This document shows, piece by piece, positions 16,648-47,280 of a DNA stretch of 64,000 nt; within the stretch, counting starts at the first letter, position 1, and the number at the start of each line of letters is the position of its first letter. This DNA comes from Candidatus Marinacidobacterales bacterium (GTDB lineage: Bacteria; Acidobacteriota; Vicinamibacteria; Marinacidobacterales; SMYC01): the NCBI GenBank assembly GCA_965224085.1, contig CBDCYI010000011.1, positions 608,001-672,000 of the forward strand, given 5' to 3'. The position numbers were made by a program, and so were the translations under genes. Below the pieces are notes generated by a model. The model saw only the letters and a program-made list of their open reading frames with translations, did not search any database and was not told the origin of the DNA.

Positions 16648-18458
16648 TCATGAGAGCCATAATTGCCATCGCACTATTATCGGCTGCCGCAGCCGCGCAA
16701 GACGACGCGAAGGACGATGCTTGGGACGTGGGCGCCACTTTCGGCCCCACGAGCCCGCTCGAGTTCGAGACCACCGAAGGTACGTGGATGAACCTCGACA
16801 TCAGCCCCGACGGTACCCAGATCGTCTTCGACCTTCTCGGAGATCTCTACGTGATGCCCGTTTTGGGCGGCACGGCGACGCGGCTGACCGAGGGCGCCGC
16901 GTTCGACATGCAGCCGCGTTTTTCCCCGAACGGAGAGAGCATTGCCTTTGCGAGCGACCGCGACGGGGCGACGAATCTATGGATCGTGGACCGGGACGGC
17001 GCGAACCCGCGCCAGGTTTCGAAAGAGAAGAAGTGGTTCATCAACAGCCCGACGTGGTCGGCGGACGGTGACTATCTGTTCGCGCGCCATCATTTCGTCG
17101 CCCAGCGTTCGCTCGGCGCGGGAGAGATCTGGCTCTACCACATCCGCGGCTCCGGCGGTCTTCAAGTCACCGAGAAGGTCACGTTCCAGAAGGACGCGGG
17201 CGAGCCTTCGATCTCACGCGACGGCCGCTATCTTTATTACAGCAAGGACGTCACACCGAGCCCGAAATTCGAGTACAACAAGGATCCGAACGGAGCCATC
17301 TACGCCATCGTGCGGCGCGACCTCGCGACCGGCGACGAGCGCCGCGTGGTGGACATCCAGGGAGGTGCTATGAGCCCTGCCATCTCTCCCGACGGCAAAC
17401 ATCTCGCCTTCATCCGCCGCATCCGACTTCAGAGTCATCTCTACCTCCAGAACATGGAGACGGGCGAGCAGTGGTCGATCTTCGACGGCCTCGACAAAGA
17501 CCTACAAGAAGCCTGGGCCATCCACGGGCTCTACCCGCAATACAGTTGGACCCCTGACGGGAAGAACATTTTCATATGGCGGCACGGCAAGATCTGGCGC
17601 GTGGACGTCGAGGCACAAAAGGGCGCGGAGGTGCCCTTTCGCGCCCGGGTCGAGCAGACGATCCACGACGCTTTGCGCTTTCCTCAAAGAGTCTTCGAGC
17701 CCGAGTTTCCCGTGCGGATGCTGCGCCACGTTGCGACCTCTTCGGACGGTGGGGAAGTCGTCTATAGCGCGCTCGGGCGTCTCTATCGCAAAGTCTTGCC
17801 CGACGGCGCGCCAGCTCGCCTGACGGAGGACGAGCACATCGAGTACGCGCCTTCTTATTCTCCGGACAAAAACACGATTGTCTACGCGACGTGGTCCGAT
17901 GACGAGAAAGGGAGAATCCGCACCATCGCGCCTGACGGCTCCGGAGCGCGTGAGCTCGTCTCGGTGCGTGGGCACTACACCGACCCTTCGTTCTCGCCGG
18001 ATGGGAAGCACATTGTCTATCGCCGGACGACGGGCGACTCGCTTCGCGGCGAGACCTTTGGGACGGATCCCGGTATCTACGTCGTTTCATTGGATGGAGT
18101 GGATGGCGGTGAGCCGTCTCTCGTTCGCGAGTCGGGTGTAGCGCCCCGTTTCGACCACACGGGCGAGCGCGTCTATTTCGCCGAGCGGCGTGACGATAAG
18201 ACCCTGCTCGCGAGCGTCGAGCTCGACGGTAGCGAAGAGATCGTCCATCTGGAATCCGAGAACGCCACTCAGATCGTGCCGTCCCCCGACGGGCGTTGGG
18301 TGGCTTTCGTCGAGCGGTTCAAAGTGTTCGTAGCGCCTTTTCCTCGCACGGGCCGTACGGTGAGTATCGGGCCGGAAGGATCCGCGATCCCCATCAAAGA
18401 AGTCTCGGGCGATATGGACTCCCCACGCCGGATCAAGAGAAAACGTTCTTCGTAATAG

Positions 18459-19716
18459 TCATCCGCGATTCGCTTTTTTTGTGGGCCACCGGGAGGGGTC
18501 GTAAAGGGTTCCTTGTCGAAGCATCGCAATGGCGATGGGGAGAATGCGGTCCATGACGCCTCTGAGAGCTCTGGCATGGCTGTGGCCTCTGTCACGAAGC
18601 CGGTCGTAGTGTTCTTTGAAGTGGGGGTCGTGCAAAACGGCAGTGCGTGCCCAATGGTGGAGAGCATTATTGAGGGGCAAAGAGCGAGCTCTCCTCATCA
18701 GGATCGTTGGTCGCAACTGACCGCGCTTGCCGCTCTTTTTTGTGACAGGAGCAATGCCGCCGAGAGTCCTGAAGGCGTTGAGATTACGGAGCCGAATGGG
18801 GTCGTGGGCATAGCAGAGCACGGAGGCGAGCACGTAAGCACCGACGCCGGGCAAAGAGGCAAGAATGGCAGGGTCGGAGCAATGCTCGTCGGTTAGTGCT
18901 TGCACGCGCTTGAACCACTTCTCGAGATGCTGGTCGGAGGCACGACGATGTTGTCGAACGAGGAGCAACTGCTGGAGTAGTAGTTGGAGATGCTCGGCGG
19001 TAGCTTGAGTGGTTGCGGTTGCGACCCGGAGAGGTTTTTGTTTGAGGGTATCGAGGATCTTCTCGGGTTTTAGACGTCGGATGCGGTGTTTTTGAGCGAG
19101 GGTCTCAATGGAGTGGCGGCTAAGAGGGTTGGGGCTGGATTCGAAGAAGAGTTTTAGGAGCTCGCAGAAAAAAGCGTCGAGAGCCTTGTCCTTTGGCGCG
19201 AGCGAGACGAGGTGAGGCCAGCAACGAGTAAGGAGTTCTCGGATCTGCGAGCTGAGGGCCACATGGTTTTTGACGAGTTGGTCGCGGGTACTCAGCAACC
19301 CGCGCATAGCGAGGATCTCCGTAGGTGGGAGATGCAAGCGCTGAAAGCGGTGGCCGTCGGTTCTGAGCGAATCGGCGAGAACGAAGGCGTCTCGCCGATC
19401 ATCCTTGGCGCCGCTCATAGAATGCCGGTCGCGGAAACGGTCGACCTGCTTGGGATTGATGGAGAAAATGGCGATGCCGTGGTCAAGAAAGAGCTCGACG
19501 ACGGCCCCATGAGGTTTTTCGATCGCCACCGCGATGCGCTCGGTATCTTGCGAGGTCTCTTCCAAAAGCCAGTCGATGGTTCCCGATAGTCCTTCGCGGC
19601 TATGGGGGGAAGCCTCTCTCCGCCAAGAAGTTACCTTTGGCATCGACCACACTGGCCAAGTGAAGCCATTGACCCAGGTCGATACCGACGAAGAAGTCGT
19701 ATTTGAGTTGATTCAT
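18459..19716 (-). CDS. IS110 DEDD recombinase/transposase (frameshift in the G6 run at 19604-19609)
   Basis: FFVGIDLG, AVAIEKP, KDDRRDAFVLAD, SLPGVG, GIAPVTKKSGK, HARALR. Confidence 0.92.
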
Positions 19717-19734
19717 GGAAGAACTCATTTCCGC

Positions 19735-19885
19735 CAGCGCATGTGATGTTTCATCGGCCCCTGTACTGGCGCTCGAAGCGCAACTCCCCACTGGATGTCC
19801 ATCACAAAAGAATTGCCGGCACGCATGTCCATTCCTGGCGCTAGGAGCGCAGGGCGACGTATGGCGTTGCCGGCAAGCTGCTGAC
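19735..19885 (-). ncRNA. Putative IS110 bridge RNA (target- and donor-binding loops)
   Basis: Two stem-loops (19742-48/19800-06 and 19813-21/19868-76), each with an inner hairpin flanked by segments that match the element ends or the insertion site. Confidence 0.8.
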
Positions 19886-19923
19886 GAAATCGAAAATAGT
19901 CCAAGCTCATCGTGATATTTGCT

Positions 19924-20340
19924 CTACCATGGCAATCGGAGTTGTCGCGCGATGCCACGAGTTCGTGCTCGGTTTTTTCTCGGTAGTTTCGGGCGAAGCA
20001 CGTCCGAGAGTTTTTCTCGAATGTAAAGAACATAAGGCGGGTCTAGATATTGACTTTGCACTTCCTGGAGCACAGGTGAAAAATAACGAAGGGAGCGAAT
20101 GGGCTGCAGTGGCTCCTCATGTTCTTGTAGCTCCCTACGAGCGCAACCCAGAAGTAGGGCACACTCGAATTCGTGTAACGGGACTCCTTGGCGGTAGAGC
20201 TGCGTCGCGATGAAGCGGTCGTCGCGCCGTGGCCGCTCAGGTGTGTTCGGAATGGAAAGATAGAGGTCCAAAATCGTCCGGACGTAATTGTTTTCTGTCA
20301 GAGCATCGCTCGTGAGCGGTTCATTACCCAGCTTCGACAT
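19924..20340 (-). CDS. IS110 accessory hypothetical protein, 138 aa
   Basis: Intact ORF (YVRTILDLY...ALLLGCARR...PIRSLRYF) whose start overlaps the upstream ORF; lies inside the element. Confidence 0.7.
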   Translation of the reverse strand: MSKLGNEPLTSDALTENNYVRTILDLYLSIPNTPERPRRDDRFIATQLYRQGVPLHEFECALLLGCARRELQEHEEPLQPIRSLRYFSPVLQEVQSQYLDPPYVLYIREKLSDVLRPKLPRKNRARTRGIARQLRLPW

Positions 20341-20738
20341 CCTTTAGCCTCCCGCGTCGGCCGCAGATACAGCATTTGGCATATCTGATACTGTCAATCT
20401 TCGTTTTCATTGAATGAGCCATCGGGCCACTAGCTTGAATTTCACGAACTCCTAGACTGCCAGAATTACTGGGGTGAATGAACCCTTGCTCCGTCACTAT
20501 TTTCGCCGCCTGGCGTAGACGATAATTCTGTTGCCGAGCCGCGTGGAGTTTTCGTGAGTTGAAACCTTTCTGGTAATTTCGGTTATTTTCGCGCTGGTTC
20601 TTATCGCCGGGTTTCGTCACGGCAGGTTGGACCGCAGTAGCACTGTCCCTGGTAACATGACTTGCAGATGAAGAAAGGCATCCCACAGCTTTTGTTGCGG
20701 CAGAAAAGCCGGAGAAGAACGACAGGTTTGGTGGCCAT
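20324..20738 (-). CDS. IS110 accessory Cys-rich (putative Zn-binding) basic protein, frameshift near 20603
   Basis: CRNKSC..FFICKSC..CYCGPTCR, then NRNYQ..HAARQQNYR and a C-terminal CCICG. Confidence 0.65.
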
Positions 20739-22445
20739 TCGGAACTCAGCAAAGTGCTGGACGATGGCCGCCCGGATGTGAGAGGCTAGCTTCAACTTGT
20801 AGTGGAGCGCCTCCTCCGGGGGCCATCCAAACATCAGAACCCCGGTCGTTTGTAGCGGCTGGGGCTCACTATTGTCGCACAGCAGGTTCACCCTCTTCTT
20901 GCCGGCGCGAGACGATCTGACTGACTCGCGCCAAAGGCGCGAGAGGATGCTGGCCTCGCGCCAGAGGCGCGGGATGAGGCCTTGTACACAGACATTTCCT
21001 ACCGACTCTTCCCGCAACACACGCTTTCGCTGCACTGATGCTTCGGCAAGCGTACAGGGCTACTACGTCCATTGGTCCGGTGACAGCGGGAAGATCCACT
21101 GGAGTCTCGGACCGGAGCTCTACACGCTTTCGCTCGACCCGACCCTCGAGCTCGAGGGCGAAGCGGCGCGGACTGCAATCGGTTTCATGACCGCGAGCGA
21201 CCAGCCGTCCGGGAGCATCACGCTCGTCGGTGCCCGCATCGTCACGATGGACGGGGACCGTGTGATCGAGAACGGGACCGTGGTCGTGGACGAGAACCGC
21301 ATCACGGCGGTGGGACCGTCCGATTCCGTGTCGGTGCCGTCCGGCGCCACGCGCATCGATGTCTCTGGCCGCACGATCATTCCGGGCATCGTGGACGTCC
21401 ACGCTCACGTCGGAAGCGAGAGCGGGGGTATCCTCTCGGAGCAAAACTGGAGATTCGTCGCGAACGTGGCCTATGGCGTGACCACCTCGCACGATCCTTC
21501 GAACGGTACGGAGATGGTGTTCACCAACTCCGAGATGATCCGCGCGGGCAAGAAGCTCGGCCCGAGACTCTACTCGACCGGCACGATTCTCTACGGCGCC
21601 GAAACCCCGTTCAAAGCCGTCATCGAGAAATACGACGACGCGCTCGCGCATCTCCGGCGCCTGAAGGCTGTGGGTGCCTTCTCCGTCAAGAGCTACAACC
21701 AGCAGCGTCGTGATGTACGCCAGATGATCATCAAAGCGGCGCGCGAGCTCGAGATGATGGTCGTCCCCGAAGGCGGCTCGCTTCTCTATATGGACGAGAC
21801 CTTCGTCTATGACGGCCATACCGGGCTCGAGCATTCGCTCCCCGTGCCGGTTTTATACGACGACGTCGTGAACTTGTACGGGAGAAGTCGTACCGGCTAC
21901 ACGCCCACGCTCATCGTCGGCTATGGCGGTCTCTCGGGCGAGAATTACTGGTACCAGCACGACGAAGTTTGGGCGAACGAGAACCTGCTCCAGTACACGC
22001 CGCGAGAGATCGTGGATGCGCGCGCACGTCGCCGCACGATGGCGCCCGAGGACGATTTCAACCATGTCCTGATCTCGGAAGGCGCGAAGAAGATCCTCGA
22101 CGCGGGAGGGCTCGTCCAGCTCGGCGCCCACGGACAGCTGCAAGGTCTCGGTGCGCACTGGGAGCTCTGGATGCTCGAGCAAGGCGGGATGACGGAGCTC
22201 GAAGCGCTCCGATCCGCCACGCTCATGGGTGCGGAATATATCGGCCTCGACGGCGAGCTCGGCTCGATCGAGGAAGGCAAGCTCGCCGACCTCGTCGTGC
22301 TCGGCAAAAACCCACTCGAGAACATCCGGAACAGCGAGAGCGTTCAGATGGTCATGCTCAACGGCCGGCTCTACGACGCGGCAACGATGAGCGAGATCGG
22401 GAACCATCCCAAGGAGCGAAAGCCGTTCTACTGGCAGTCTGCGCG

Positions 22446-22733
22446 ATGAGCCTGCTCATGCTTCTGCTGCTTGCTCAGTTCAACTACGATGCGAAAGAGG
22501 CGCTCGCTGTGGACGCGTCGGAGGTCGAGCTCGTCGAGGGCGCGCGCTTGCAGGAAATCTCCTATGCGAGTCCCAAAGGCGGGCGCGTCCCCGGATATTT
22601 GATCGCGCCTCAAGGCGCCGGACCGCATGCGGGCATCGTGTTCGTTCACTGGGGCCAGGGAAACCGTACCGAGTTCGTCGCGGCCACCCAGGCCGCGATG
22701 AGGCGTATCGCTTCCGACGCTACCCAGCCATAG
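22446..22733 (+). pseudogene. Alpha/beta hydrolase N-terminal fragment
   Basis: Signal peptide, ISYASPKGGRVPGYL, VFVHWGQG; truncated. Confidence 0.55.
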
Positions 22734-45578: not shown

Positions 45579-47280
45579 CTATAGGTACGCGGCTCGGCTG
45601 CCAGCGCCTCTTCTCTTTCCGTCCCGATCCACCCAGACGAGCGTGCGGCTCTCTAGGCCGCGGCCCGAGACATAGACCAGAGACCCGGTGTCCGAGACGC
45701 TGAACTGTGCGGCCCCCGTTGTCGAACCAGCGGTCATGGCGCCCTCGGCCATGGGTCTGGGACCGCCCGTCACCTCGAGCGTGTCCACATCAAACGGCAC
45801 CGCCAAAAGCGTTCGACCCAAGTCACGAGCGTCGCCCCTCGATACAACGTAGACGAGGTGCCCCGTGGGAACGTAGCGGGCGTCTCTACCGCCTTCGATC
45901 AGAACCTTTCTCTCGTCGGTCTCGAGAGAATGCACCACGATCTGCGCGTCCTCCCAGTTCGCACCGTCCCCGAGCGTAAAGAGCAGGGTTTTTTCGCCCG
46001 GCAAGACCTGGGGGCCATGGCCAACCTTTTCGGTTCCCTCCAGCGGGATGAGAACCTCGGGCGTGCCTCCATCGGCGGACACGTGCATGATGCCCTCCGG
46101 TTGTCCGAAAACAATGGTGTCATCGGCTTCCCACCGAGCGCCCCACAAAGCTGTAGCTTCACATAGACGCACGGGTGCACCACCACGGATGGCGACCTTC
46201 TTGAGTTGGCCGTTTGTATAGAATCCTACCCACTCCCCGTCGGGAGAGAAAAAGGGACTTCGGGCACCGCCATCAGTGCCCCGGACGGGAGTCGCCTCCG
46301 TTTGGTCCATGGCGCGGAGGTAGAGCTGATTGTTCGCACTATAAACGAAGCGGGTACCGTCCGAAGAGAGAGCCACGACGTGACGATCCGTATATGACAG
46401 TGAGTCGCCCGAGGGCAACGGAAGCGAAGACCGTACGACGGGTCGTGGCGGTGGCTCGCGATACATTACGCTCCAAACCTGTTTCGGATATTTTTCCAAG
46501 CAGCGGGTGAGAAACATGCGAAGCGTGGGATCGAGATCCGCCGGTAACGCATCCCAGTCCGGCTCCTTCGTCAACACGTACGCGAGTGTGTCGGATACAT
46601 CCTCGCCCGCAAACGCACGCTTGCCCGTGAGCATCTTATACAGCACGACACCGAACGCCCAAACATCCGCCCTCTTATCGACCCGCTTGCCCTTTGCTTG
46701 TTCGGGGCTCATATACGCGGCGGTCCCAAGAATCACTCCAACTCGAGTCGCATCTCGTGTGAGTGTGGGTGACGTCGAGCTGTCGGCGTCAGCTGTTCCC
46801 TCCTGAAAGACTTTCGCCAAACCGTAGTCCAAAACCTTGATCTTGCGGTCCTCGGTCTGCTTTACGTTCGCGGGTTTTAGATCACGGTGAACGATCCCTC
46901 GTTCGTGCGCTTCCTCTAGCGCTTCGGCGATCTTGGTTGCGATGTCGAGAGCCTCTTCCAATGGGATGGGTCCTCGTAAGATCCGCTCCGCCAGAGTCTC
47001 TCCAGGAACGAGTTCGAGGACGAGGTAGTGCGTGTCGTCCGAGTGCTCTAGGCCGTAGATCGAGGCGATGTTCGGGTGGTTCAGCGAGGCAAGGATCTTC
47101 GCTTCTCGCTTGAATCGGGCTAGGCGTTGTTCGTTCTCGGCGAACTCGTCAGGCAAGACCTTGATCGCCACATCCCTACCAAGCTTCCCATCTCTTGCGC
47201 GATAGACCTCACCCTGTACGCTTGCCGATGGGCTCGAGGATCTCGTAATGGGCGAGGCGCGTTCCGGCGGCGAGTGATAT
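45579..47280 (-). pseudogene. Hanks-type Ser/Thr kinase with TolB/PD40 repeats; start ATA, frameshift in the Gly loop, internal deletion
   Basis: LAAGTRLAHYEI, GEVYRA, VAIK, HRDLKPAN, DYGLAK, GTAAYMSPEQ, FSPDG repeats. Confidence 0.88.

What the first reader, a model, noticed from the sequence alone, without database searches (positions are those of the whole stretch)
47212..47228. IS110 guide appears to target the GMGEVY motif of Ser/Thr kinase genes; a scar sits in that motif
Seen: combining the two target guides gives GGAAT[GG]GCGACGTAT = GGA ATG GGC GAC GTA T (G-M-G-D-V-Y), close to the conserved Gly-loop GGMGEVY of Hanks kinases. In the kinase pseudogene the Gly loop reads ATCGGCAAG-CGTACA-GG-GTGAGGTCTAT. 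Positions 47212-47228 are a perfect 17-nt match to the element left end plus core (21043-21059), and this is where the frameshift lies. Inference: a second copy inserted at AT[GG]GTGAG and was then almost entirely deleted through the shared TCGGCAAG microhomology. The element may exploit a large paralogous kinase family as a renewable target pool; the amidohydrolase site would then be a near-cognate target.
Basis: partly seen in the sequence, partly recalled or inferred. Interest (0 to 1): 0.85.

Follow-up and report, generated by a model that had tools for sequence, protein, structure and literature searches.

The report
Kinase-targeting IS110 element and its scar
A family of RNA-guided jumping genes carries guides that spell the conserved glycine-loop motif of bacterial Ser/Thr kinases and inserts there almost every time; the 17 bases at 47212-47228 are the stub left after one such copy was deleted from a kinase gene.

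Summary
The 17-mer at 47212-47228 (-) is identical to 21043-21059 (+). It lies exactly at the lesion in the Gly loop of a Hanks-type kinase pseudogene.

- The 2.64-kb IS110-family element (18418-21056) encodes a two-loop bridge RNA. Its target guides read G-M-G-D-V-Y in kinase sense.
- In this genome, 8 of 14 distinct insertion sites are kinase Gly loops.
- Relatives in two other genomes also sit in kinase Gly loops.
- Among 47 metagenome relatives (at least 60% transposase identity), 34 of 34 readable right-end junctions and 32 of 32 left-end junctions lie in kinase Gly-loop codons. None of 33 distant IS110 loci gave a kinase hit.
- The variable guide base tracks the third base of the Gly codon at each site (19 of 33, against 9.8 expected).

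Intact homologues in congeneric genomes read IGKGGMGEVY where the window has the stub. Contigs from four sequencing runs cross the stub without a difference, so it is not an assembly collapse. The most likely origin is an insertion followed by loss of almost the whole element between two 8-bp direct repeats. That deletion step is inferred, not shown.

Three literature searches found no report of kinase targeting by IS110 elements.

The parts
47212..47228 (-). 17-nt stretch identical to the left end plus core of the element. Read on the minus strand it consists of the 8-nt microhomology (47228-47221), 6 nt of element left end (47220-47215), the 2-nt core GG (47214-47213), and the first base of the kinase's next Gly codon (47212).
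45579..47280 (-). Hanks-type Ser/Thr kinase + PD40 beta-propeller pseudogene. It is broken in the Gly loop (net -2 nt). It also has ATA where homologues have the ATG start (47280-47278). The rest of the frame is open for 609 codons.
   Evidence: (Pkinase 8.5e-47, profile from position 13)
18418..21056 (-). IS110-family element, 2639 bp, flanked by the core GG at 18416-17 and 21057-58. It interrupts a TolB/PD40-amidohydrolase gene. This copy is defective.
18459..19728 (-). Transposase gene (DEDD_Tnp_IS110 + Transposase_20). In this copy it is frameshifted by one extra base in a homopolymer run near 19604. The gene is intact (443-aa ORF) in three other copies.
19731..19884 (-). Bridge RNA with four guides: left target guide 19862-19852, right target guide 19836-19829, left donor guide 19791-19783, right donor guide 19767-19760. 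Each loop lies between an outer stem and an inner hairpin.
19924..20340 (-). Accessory ORF-B: 138 aa, five-helix model, no known family. Conserved across the clade.
20327..20738 (-). Conserved core of accessory ORF-A: about 137 aa, Cys-rich zinc-ribbon-like, no known family (coordinates approximate). In this copy it is frameshifted by an extra base at 20603.
16650..18417 (+). 5' part of the interrupted TolB/PD40-amidohydrolase gene. The 3' part is 21057-22449.

Best explanation
The window holds a defective copy of a 2.64-kb IS110-family element. The element consists of a transposase, a bridge RNA and two conserved accessory genes. The target-binding loop of its bridge RNA is programmed for the codons of the kinase Gly loop (GxGGM|GEVY). 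Recombination occurs at the GG that spans the Met and Gly codons. A copy of this element (lineage A or B) once inserted at that position in the kinase gene at 45579-47280, antisense to the kinase like all other copies. Later, almost the whole element and the last 10 nt of the kinase's left half were lost. The loss ran between two 8-bp direct repeats: the kinase's own I-G-K codons, and an identical 8-mer that happens to lie 8 nt inside the element's left end. This left 6 nt of element plus the core in place of 10 nt of gene, a net -2 frameshift.
Shown: the identity, its position, the guides, the family-wide target preference, what the intact Gly loop looks like, and that the stub is real in reads.
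Inferred: that an insertion preceded the lesion, and that the loss was a microhomology deletion (replication slippage or end joining).
For: - The 17-nt identity is unique in the window and sits at the lesion.
- The stub ends at the exact base where every left-end junction of the family ends: 10 junctions in this genome and 32 in metagenome relatives.
- The right flank of the stub is an ordinary kinase target. It is identical, for the 10 nt after the core, to the intact best homologue in G003. That homologue's left half also carries lineage A's right-target-guide sequence.
- The base before the shared 8-mer is the kinase's, not the element's, so the crossover lies inside the 8-mer.
- Homologues from G001 and G003 align on both sides of the stub, which favours an event within one gene.
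- 8 of 14 sites in this genome are kinase Gly loops, against 29 intact Gly loops left. Prior insertion is therefore a likely event for any kinase here.
- In congeneric G002, a 92%-identical truncated copy sits at the same position in a close homologue of this kinase.
- The lost start codon fits a gene that has been dead for some time.
- Contigs from four runs cross the stub.
Against: - No allele with the full element, and no intact allele, was seen at this locus.
- Only 6 nt plus the core are unambiguously element-derived.
- The native Gly-loop sequence already resembles the element end. After a 2-nt gap, 14 of the 17 positions agree with the G003 homologue (my count). So 3 substitutions plus a 2-nt deletion would give the same string.
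- The 8-bp repeat in the element is specific to lineage A. Lineage B differs by one base there, so the repeat is a coincidence rather than a designed feature.
- The G002 copy is not shown to be orthologous: there is no flank synteny.
- Published work describes IS110 excision as scarless or copy-out. A stub is therefore not a normal product of the transposase.
Confidence: 0.75

Rival explanations
1. Aberrant transposase-mediated event. This could be a one-ended or single-strand (top-strand) insertion, or a 'half-match' recombination. It would have been resolved by the host so that only the tip of the left end was copied into the kinase. No full-length copy would ever have resided there.
For: Abstracts of two preprints report single-strand circles, top-strand insertion, direct transfer and half-match recombination for IS110 elements (abstracts and outlines only). 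The stub ends exactly at the core, as any transposase-made junction would.
Against: The other end of the stub lies in an 8-bp identity between gene and element. That is the signature of homology-dependent joining, not of cleavage at a core. The bases around the GG inside that 8-mer do not match any of the four guides (my reading). No such product is described in the texts I saw.
Confidence: 0.1
2. Ectopic recombination at the 8-bp microhomology between an empty kinase paralogue and the left-end junction of an occupied one. On this reading the two halves of the pseudogene come from different genes.
For: The genus carries dozens of near-identical kinase paralogues: 28-56 matches per genome at E<=1e-60 in three of four congeners. 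Several copies in this genome and in metagenomes look rearranged. L044 and L046 share a right flank but differ in the left flank.
Against: Homologues from G001 and G003 align across both sides of the stub at similar identity, 81-84%, as expected for a single gene.
Confidence: 0.07
3. The change arose in place with no element involved. A 2-nt deletion and three substitutions in a decaying pseudogene produced the match to the element end by chance.
For: The native sequence already agrees with the element end at 14 of 17 positions after a 2-nt gap (my count). The gene also carries another lesion, the lost start codon.
Against: All five changed bases fall within 12 nt, while the 35 and 44 nt on either side differ from G003 at only 3 positions each (my count). 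All three substitutions give the element's base, which is 1 in 27 even if substitutions at those positions are granted. The pattern search expects 0.02 chance matches in the window. The position is the exact family-wide junction.
Confidence: 0.05
4. Assembly artefact: a full-length copy collapsed through the short repeat.
For: The element is a multi-copy repeat of at least 12 copies or fragments.
Against: Contigs built independently from four runs in three studies contain the stub joined to unique kinase sequence on both sides. They show no differences, and depth equals the flanks. Such words cannot exist if only the full-length form is present.
Confidence: 0.01

Closest known systems
IS621 / IS110-group bridge-RNA-guided recombinases (Durrant et al. 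2024, PMC11208160; passages read)
   Same: It has the DEDD RuvC-like and Tnp domains. The bridge RNA lies in the left end, just upstream of the transposase gene. There are two internal loops, each with a left and a right guide that include a 2-nt core. [quoted passage not shown] Both element ends are recognised by the second loop.
   Different: The natural target is a protein-coding motif of a paralogous gene family, not REP or other extragenic repeats. The core is GG/CC. The left end is about 1.3 kb (about 0.7 kb in some relatives) and carries one or two conserved accessory genes. There was no Rfam match at gathering threshold.
REP-, attC- and transposon-end-targeting IS110/IS1111 elements: ISPpu9 (PMC12288879, search listing only); IS4321/IS5075 and REP targeting (seen only as titles in the reference list of PMC11208160)
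   Same: It uses a short sequence present in many copies per genome as a renewable, mostly harmless landing site, and inserts in a fixed orientation.
   Different: Here the repeated sequence is kept constant by selection on a protein, the kinase ATP-binding loop. Each insertion destroys a gene. The guides vary at positions that correspond to codon third bases.
Homing endonuclease genes, inteins and group I/II introns that home into conserved motifs of protein genes (recalled, not from a call)
   Same: It exploits a sequence that the host cannot easily change because it encodes a conserved active-site motif.
   Different: There is no splicing, so the host gene is inactivated. Recognition is by an RNA guide paired with a recombinase, and the target family consists of individually dispensable paralogues.

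Membership tests
IS110 family (IS110 group) bridge-RNA-guided element | [quoted passage not shown] | tested here: met
   6.3e-24 and 9.8e-12 for the window copy, which starts at profile position 26 because of the frameshift; full profile 1-155 in six other copies. NCBIfam NF033542 'IS110 family RNA-guided transposase', 162.6 bits against a cut-off of 140.
IS110 family (IS110 group) bridge-RNA-guided element | Same 2-nt core at both junctions; no longer target-site duplication | tested here: met
   GG lies at both junctions of all 7 copies for which both junctions are present. The flanks rejoin in frame to a continuous Gly loop or amidohydrolase reading frame.
IS110 family (IS110 group) bridge-RNA-guided element | No terminal inverted repeats | tested here: met
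   no inverted repeat involves both termini. The best pair (14 nt, 93%) joins a site 9 nt from the left end with a site about 95 nt inside the right end.
IS110 family (IS110 group) bridge-RNA-guided element | Non-coding RNA upstream of the transposase gene with a target-binding and a donor-binding loop, whose guides match target and element ends | tested here: met
   four guides match the target halves and the two element ends; the outer stem and inner hairpin of the target loop and the outer stem of the donor loop are predicted on 40 distinct sequences, with compensatory pairs (11:74 UA 13 / CG 23; 39:47 CG 27 / UA 4); the guide base covaries with the site.
IS110 family (IS110 group) bridge-RNA-guided element | Strand rule of the guides as in IS621 | tested here: met
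   The rule is quoted (PMC11208160, section 7). The orientation of the guides is read.
IS110 family (IS110 group) bridge-RNA-guided element | Circular intermediate, expression of the RNA, recombination activity | not testable with these tools
   No RNA run was laid. A simple sigma-70 scan found 0 promoter-like sites in the element, which is weak evidence for this phylum.
Rfam-curated bridge RNA or other RNA family | Match at gathering score | tested here: not met
   0 matches in the whole window.
Hanks-type Ser/Thr protein kinase (the target gene) | Pkinase domain with Gly loop GxGxxGxV and VAIK lysine | tested here: met
   Pkinase 8.5e-47, but only from profile position 13. The Gly loop is the part destroyed, and VAIK is present.

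The most novel reading that the evidence does not exclude
This IS110 clade is a dedicated RNA-programmed parasite of the Hanks-kinase gene family, or possibly a switch for it. Its guides are held on the invariant first and second codon positions of G-M-G-E-V-Y. They drift at third positions, so sublineages are tuned to different paralogues or codon usages. Because IS110 excision is reported as scarless, occupied kinases could be reversibly switched off. The two conserved accessory proteins, a zinc-ribbon protein and a five-helix protein that are unknown in other IS110 elements, could be what lets the element use a transcribed coding target. Stubs like 47212-47228 would then be the host's irreversible way out.
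Probability: 0.15. Interest if true: 0.9.

Novelty: new variant of a known kind. Interest (0 to 1): 0.8.

Why it matters
Bridge recombinases are being developed as programmable genome-writing tools, and their natural targets have been described as extragenic repeats. This clade's natural programme is instead a conserved catalytic motif in a large paralogous gene family. Natural guide-target covariation sits at codon wobble positions. There are at least 31 distinct natural target sites in metagenomes, by left flank, that could serve as a ready-made specificity data set. Two conserved accessory genes of unknown function come with the element. The clade also suggests a cost of kinase family expansion in Acidobacteriota-like genomes: about one kinase in five in this genome is occupied or scarred. 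Finally, it gives a concrete example of how such insertions decay.

Tried and rejected
- Rfam scan of the window: no match.
- The search for related loci on genome contigs with the single transposase found only the G002 copy already known.
- Class-wide genome search (401 genomes) found the close clade only in G000 and G009 at E<=1e-90. The clade is therefore rare among reference genomes searched. This does not show absence.
- Synteny between the window and the G002 locus: none beyond the kinase N-terminus. Orthology of the G002 insertion was therefore dropped as an argument.
- The flanks of the G003 homologue also did not align to the window.
- Covariation at the three left-target-guide wobble positions was not significant in the metagenome set (p 0.12-0.43). 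Only the right-target-guide position is significant (p 4.5e-4). Position 6 became significant only when this genome's copies were added.
- PDB fold searches for ORF-A and ORF-B: no match at E<=0.001. Pfam and NCBIfam: nothing credible. The Atlas returned only unnamed clusters.
- The sigma-70 promoter scan of the element found none.
- An ORF reading out of the left end into the target (62 codons in this element) is not conserved; several relatives have stops there. I rejected a fusion-protein idea on that basis.
- Supplements of papers were closed. The supplementary tables of PMC11208160 on natural IS110 targets might already list such a target.
- Scoring all intact kinase Gly loops of this genome against the guides, to ask whether the best matches are already occupied, was not done (see below).

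Full report
OBSERVATION.
The 17 bases at 47212-47228 (minus strand) are identical to 21043-21059 (plus strand). They occur nowhere else in the window, even with two mismatches allowed; shuffles give a mean of 0.02 matches. On the minus strand the stretch lies in a Hanks-type kinase + PD40 gene (45579-47280; Pkinase 8.5e-47, matched only from profile position 13). The N-terminal frame reads ...LAHYEILEPIGK and then runs into a stop. GEVYRARDGKLGRDVAIKVLP... continues in another frame. Intact homologues from three congeneric genomes read IGKGGMGEVY at this place. Relative to them the window has a net loss of 2 nt confined to the codons between IGK and GEVY.

THE ELEMENT.
- Location: 21043-21059 is the end of a repeat that interrupts a TolB/PD40-amidohydrolase gene (16650-18417 and 21057-22449). 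The two gene halves rejoin in frame across a GG present at both junctions.
- Transposase: the element (18418-21056) carries an IS110-family transposase on the minus strand (PF01548 and PF02371; NCBIfam NF033542 at 162.6 bits against a cut-off of 140 for an intact copy).
- Copy number: blastn against the organism's own genome (6.87 Mb, 12 contigs) finds at least 12 copies or fragments. Three are full-length and identical to one another in the aligned positions (99.8% to the window copy). Others have internal deletions, are partial, or belong to a lineage B that is 87-91% identical. There is also a 78% fragment.
- State of the window copy: it differs from the three master copies by an extra base near 19604, an extra base at 20603, and two substitutions. 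The first frameshifts the transposase and the second frameshifts accessory ORF-A. This copy is defective.

THE BRIDGE RNA.
A conserved 155-nt region (19884-19731) lies directly upstream of the transposase start. It has the two-loop layout of an IS110 bridge RNA.
- Target loop: the 5' side (19862-19852) has the same sense as the left target including the core. The 3' side (19836-19829) is complementary to the right target.
- Donor loop: 19791-19783 repeats the element's right end, and 19767-19760 is complementary to its left end.
- Strand rule: this is the rule stated for IS621 in PMC11208160, section 7.
- Structure: RNAalifold on 40 distinct sequences of the clade predicts the outer stem and inner hairpin of the target loop and the outer stem of the donor loop, with compensatory changes.
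- Rfam has no match.

TARGET PREFERENCE IN THIS GENOME.
There are 11 right-end junctions and 10 left-end junctions, the stub among them. Together they define 14 distinct sites.
- Eight sites are kinase Gly loops (...G.GGM | G(E/D/V)VY...). The kinase is always antisense to the transposase.
- Six sites are not kinases: the amidohydrolase, an HNH-like ORF, and others. By reading, they share only the few bases around the core.
- For comparison, a protein-motif scan finds 29 intact kinase Gly loops in the genome, and the Pkinase profile gives 61 matches.
- Lineage B differs from lineage A in both target guides. The changed base of the right target guide is found in 2 of 3 lineage B sites. The lineage A base is found in 4 of 8 lineage A sites.

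TARGET PREFERENCE ELSEWHERE.
- Reference genomes: in 60 relatives and 401 genomes of the class, close relatives of the transposase were found only in G002 (same genus, 92% DNA identity, truncated) and G009 (another genus of the family, 62% protein identity). Both copies sit in kinase Gly loops. The G009 copy shows both junctions (LGAYKIVEAIGAGGM | GEVYRARDTKLDRTVALKIL), and its right target guide carries the base that matches its site.
- Metagenome scan: a scan with an alignment of three transposases returned 80 loci. Of these, 47 have at least 60% identity and 33 have 36-44%.
- Right-end junctions: among the 47, a junction was located in 37, and 34 of those have at least 18 nt of flank. All 34 read a kinase N-terminus ending in G.GGM. 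They form 31 distinct flank groups.
- Left-end junctions: a junction was seen in 32 loci, and all 32 continue with G(E/V/T)V(Y/F). Two of them have under 15 nt of flank, and one has a stop after three codons. The other 15 contigs end before the left end.
- Control: none of the 33 distant loci gave a kinase hit with the same pattern. Many of those contigs are short.

GUIDE-TARGET COVARIATION.
In the alignment of 49 bridge RNAs, the guides vary almost only at positions that correspond to codon third bases of the target.
- The variable base of the right target guide equals the third base of the Gly codon at the site in 19 of 33 metagenome loci. The permutation mean is 9.8 and p is 4.5e-4. With this genome's copies and G009 added, the figure is 27 of 45.
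- The three wobble positions of the left target guide show no significant covariation in the metagenome set (p 0.12-0.43).
- Individual cases are nonetheless telling. L071 matches its site at 11 of 11 positions. L082 has a guide reprogrammed for a G-T-V-Y kinase and matches at 10 of 11.

THE STUB.
In kinase sense, the element always lies to the left of its left-end junction. An insertion in this kinase would therefore have produced the order: IGK codons, the rest of the Gly-loop left half, core, element, left end, core, GEVY codons. The lineage A left end contains, 8 nt from its tip, an 8-mer identical to the kinase's I-G-K codons. Loss of everything between the two 8-mers gives exactly the observed string: the 8-mer, 6 nt of left end, the core, then GEVY. 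That is 8 nt where the gene had 10.
- The base before the 8-mer is the kinase's, so the join lies within the repeat.
- The right flank of the stub equals that of the intact G003 homologue for 10 nt. That homologue's left half carries the lineage A right-target-guide sequence, so the site would have been a good target.
- Homologues from G001 and G003 align on both sides of the stub.
- The gene also has ATA where homologues have the ATG start. This fits a gene that has been inactive for some time.
- It is the only solo remnant of this kind in the genome.
- Contigs from four runs in three studies carry the stub with unique sequence on both sides and no differences. This excludes an assembly collapse as far as contigs can. 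Those runs may include the source sample.

CAVEATS.
- The native Gly loop already resembles the element end. After a 2-nt gap, 14 of 17 positions agree (my count). A 2-nt deletion with three substitutions would give the same string. I rate this low for three reasons: the five changes are clustered in 12 nt within otherwise conserved flanks, all three substitutions give the element's base, and the position is the family-wide junction.
- A transposase-made aberrant product cannot be excluded. Abstracts of recent preprints describe single-strand and half-match reactions. However, the 8-bp identity at the other end of the stub points to homology-dependent joining.
- The G002 insertion is in a close homologue of this kinase, but no synteny was found. 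It shows repeated use of such sites, not shared ancestry.

COMPARISON AND NOVELTY.
The element meets every testable defining feature of an IS110-group bridge-RNA element. It departs from what I could find described in three ways.
- The target is a conserved protein-coding motif of a paralogous family, rather than REP-like repeats. PMC11208160 names REP elements, and its main text has 0 occurrences of 'kinase'.
- Guide variation sits at codon wobble positions.
- The left end is long and carries two conserved accessory genes.
Three full-text searches returned no paper linking IS110 elements to kinase genes. Supplementary tables were closed and could hold such a target motif. I therefore class it as a new variant of a known kind.

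ACCESSORY GENES (side finding).
ORF-A is Cys-rich, with a conserved core of about 137 aa and seven invariant Cys. ORF-B is 138 aa. Both lie between the left end and the bridge RNA, on the transposase strand, and both are conserved through the clade down to about 30-37% identity. Elements with a 0.7-kb left end have ORF-A only. The AlphaFold models (pLDDT 74.5 and 80.6) show a zinc-ribbon-like hairpin with a long helical hairpin for ORF-A and a five-helix bundle for ORF-B. Neither has a PDB fold match at E<=0.001, a Pfam or NCBIfam family, or a named Atlas cluster.

VERDICT.
The stub itself is a small thing. What it points to is a clade of bridge-RNA elements programmed for the kinase Gly loop, which is well supported and, as far as I could check, undescribed.

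Noticed in passing
window 19604 and 20603; compare G000:C11:289310-291953: The window's copy of the element is defective. One extra base in a homopolymer run frameshifts the transposase; the C9 copy shares this change. One extra base splits ORF-A. Three other copies are identical to each other and intact.
   Followed up: yes
window 19924-20340 and about 20327-20738 (minus strand); L001:2020-2436, L001:2423-2833: Two conserved accessory genes of unknown function sit inside the left end of an IS110-family element: a zinc-ribbon-like protein with seven invariant Cys, and a five-helix protein. No Pfam, NCBIfam or PDB match was found.
   Followed up: partly
window 47278-47280 (minus strand): The scarred kinase has ATA where the G003 homologue and many paralogues have the ATG start. 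There is no ATG, GTG or TTG between the upstream stop and the Gly loop.
   Followed up: partly
G000:C11:764573-766949: A lineage B copy is truncated in its left part and is followed by a 32-nt inverted right-end fragment. That fragment's flank is an HNH-like ORF (...LEYHHEDPYGM). It looks like a rearrangement between two copies in opposite orientation.
   Followed up: no
G000:C4:1482115-1483872: Another lineage B copy is truncated after the bridge RNA. It abuts the N-terminus of a second kinase on the opposite strand (Pkinase profile 1-65), which again suggests recombination between copies.
   Followed up: no
L079:1697-1847: In a metagenome relative, the right end is cut about 20 nt short and joined to an apparently intact Gly loop (YKILEKLGSGGMGEVY on the opposite strand). 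This is a different kind of junction from all the others.
   Followed up: no
L044 and L046: Two metagenome contigs share the same right flank (40 aa identical) but have different kinase N-termini on the left. This would be expected if copies in different kinases recombine.
   Followed up: no
G002:C1:5941242-5942545 (L034): Two near-identical kinase N-terminal regions lie 1 kb apart. One has an intact Gly loop, and the other carries the truncated element at the Gly loop.
   Followed up: partly
window 20872-22449 (+): An ORF starts inside the element's left end (62 codons) and reads in frame into the 3' part of the interrupted amidohydrolase gene. The same happens at kinase sites for lineage A. 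It is not conserved in relatives; several have stops there.
   Followed up: partly
whole genome G000: There are 41 matches to the DEDD_Tnp_IS110 profile, falling into several score groups (multi-copy sets at 100.6, 90.1, 89.8 and about 45 bits). The genome therefore hosts several other IS110-family lineages, whose targets were not examined.
   Followed up: no
G001-G004 (same genus): The kinase + PD40 architecture is hugely expanded in the genus. Three of the four genomes have 28-56 matches at E<=1e-60 to the scarred kinase, and G004 has 6.
   Followed up: no
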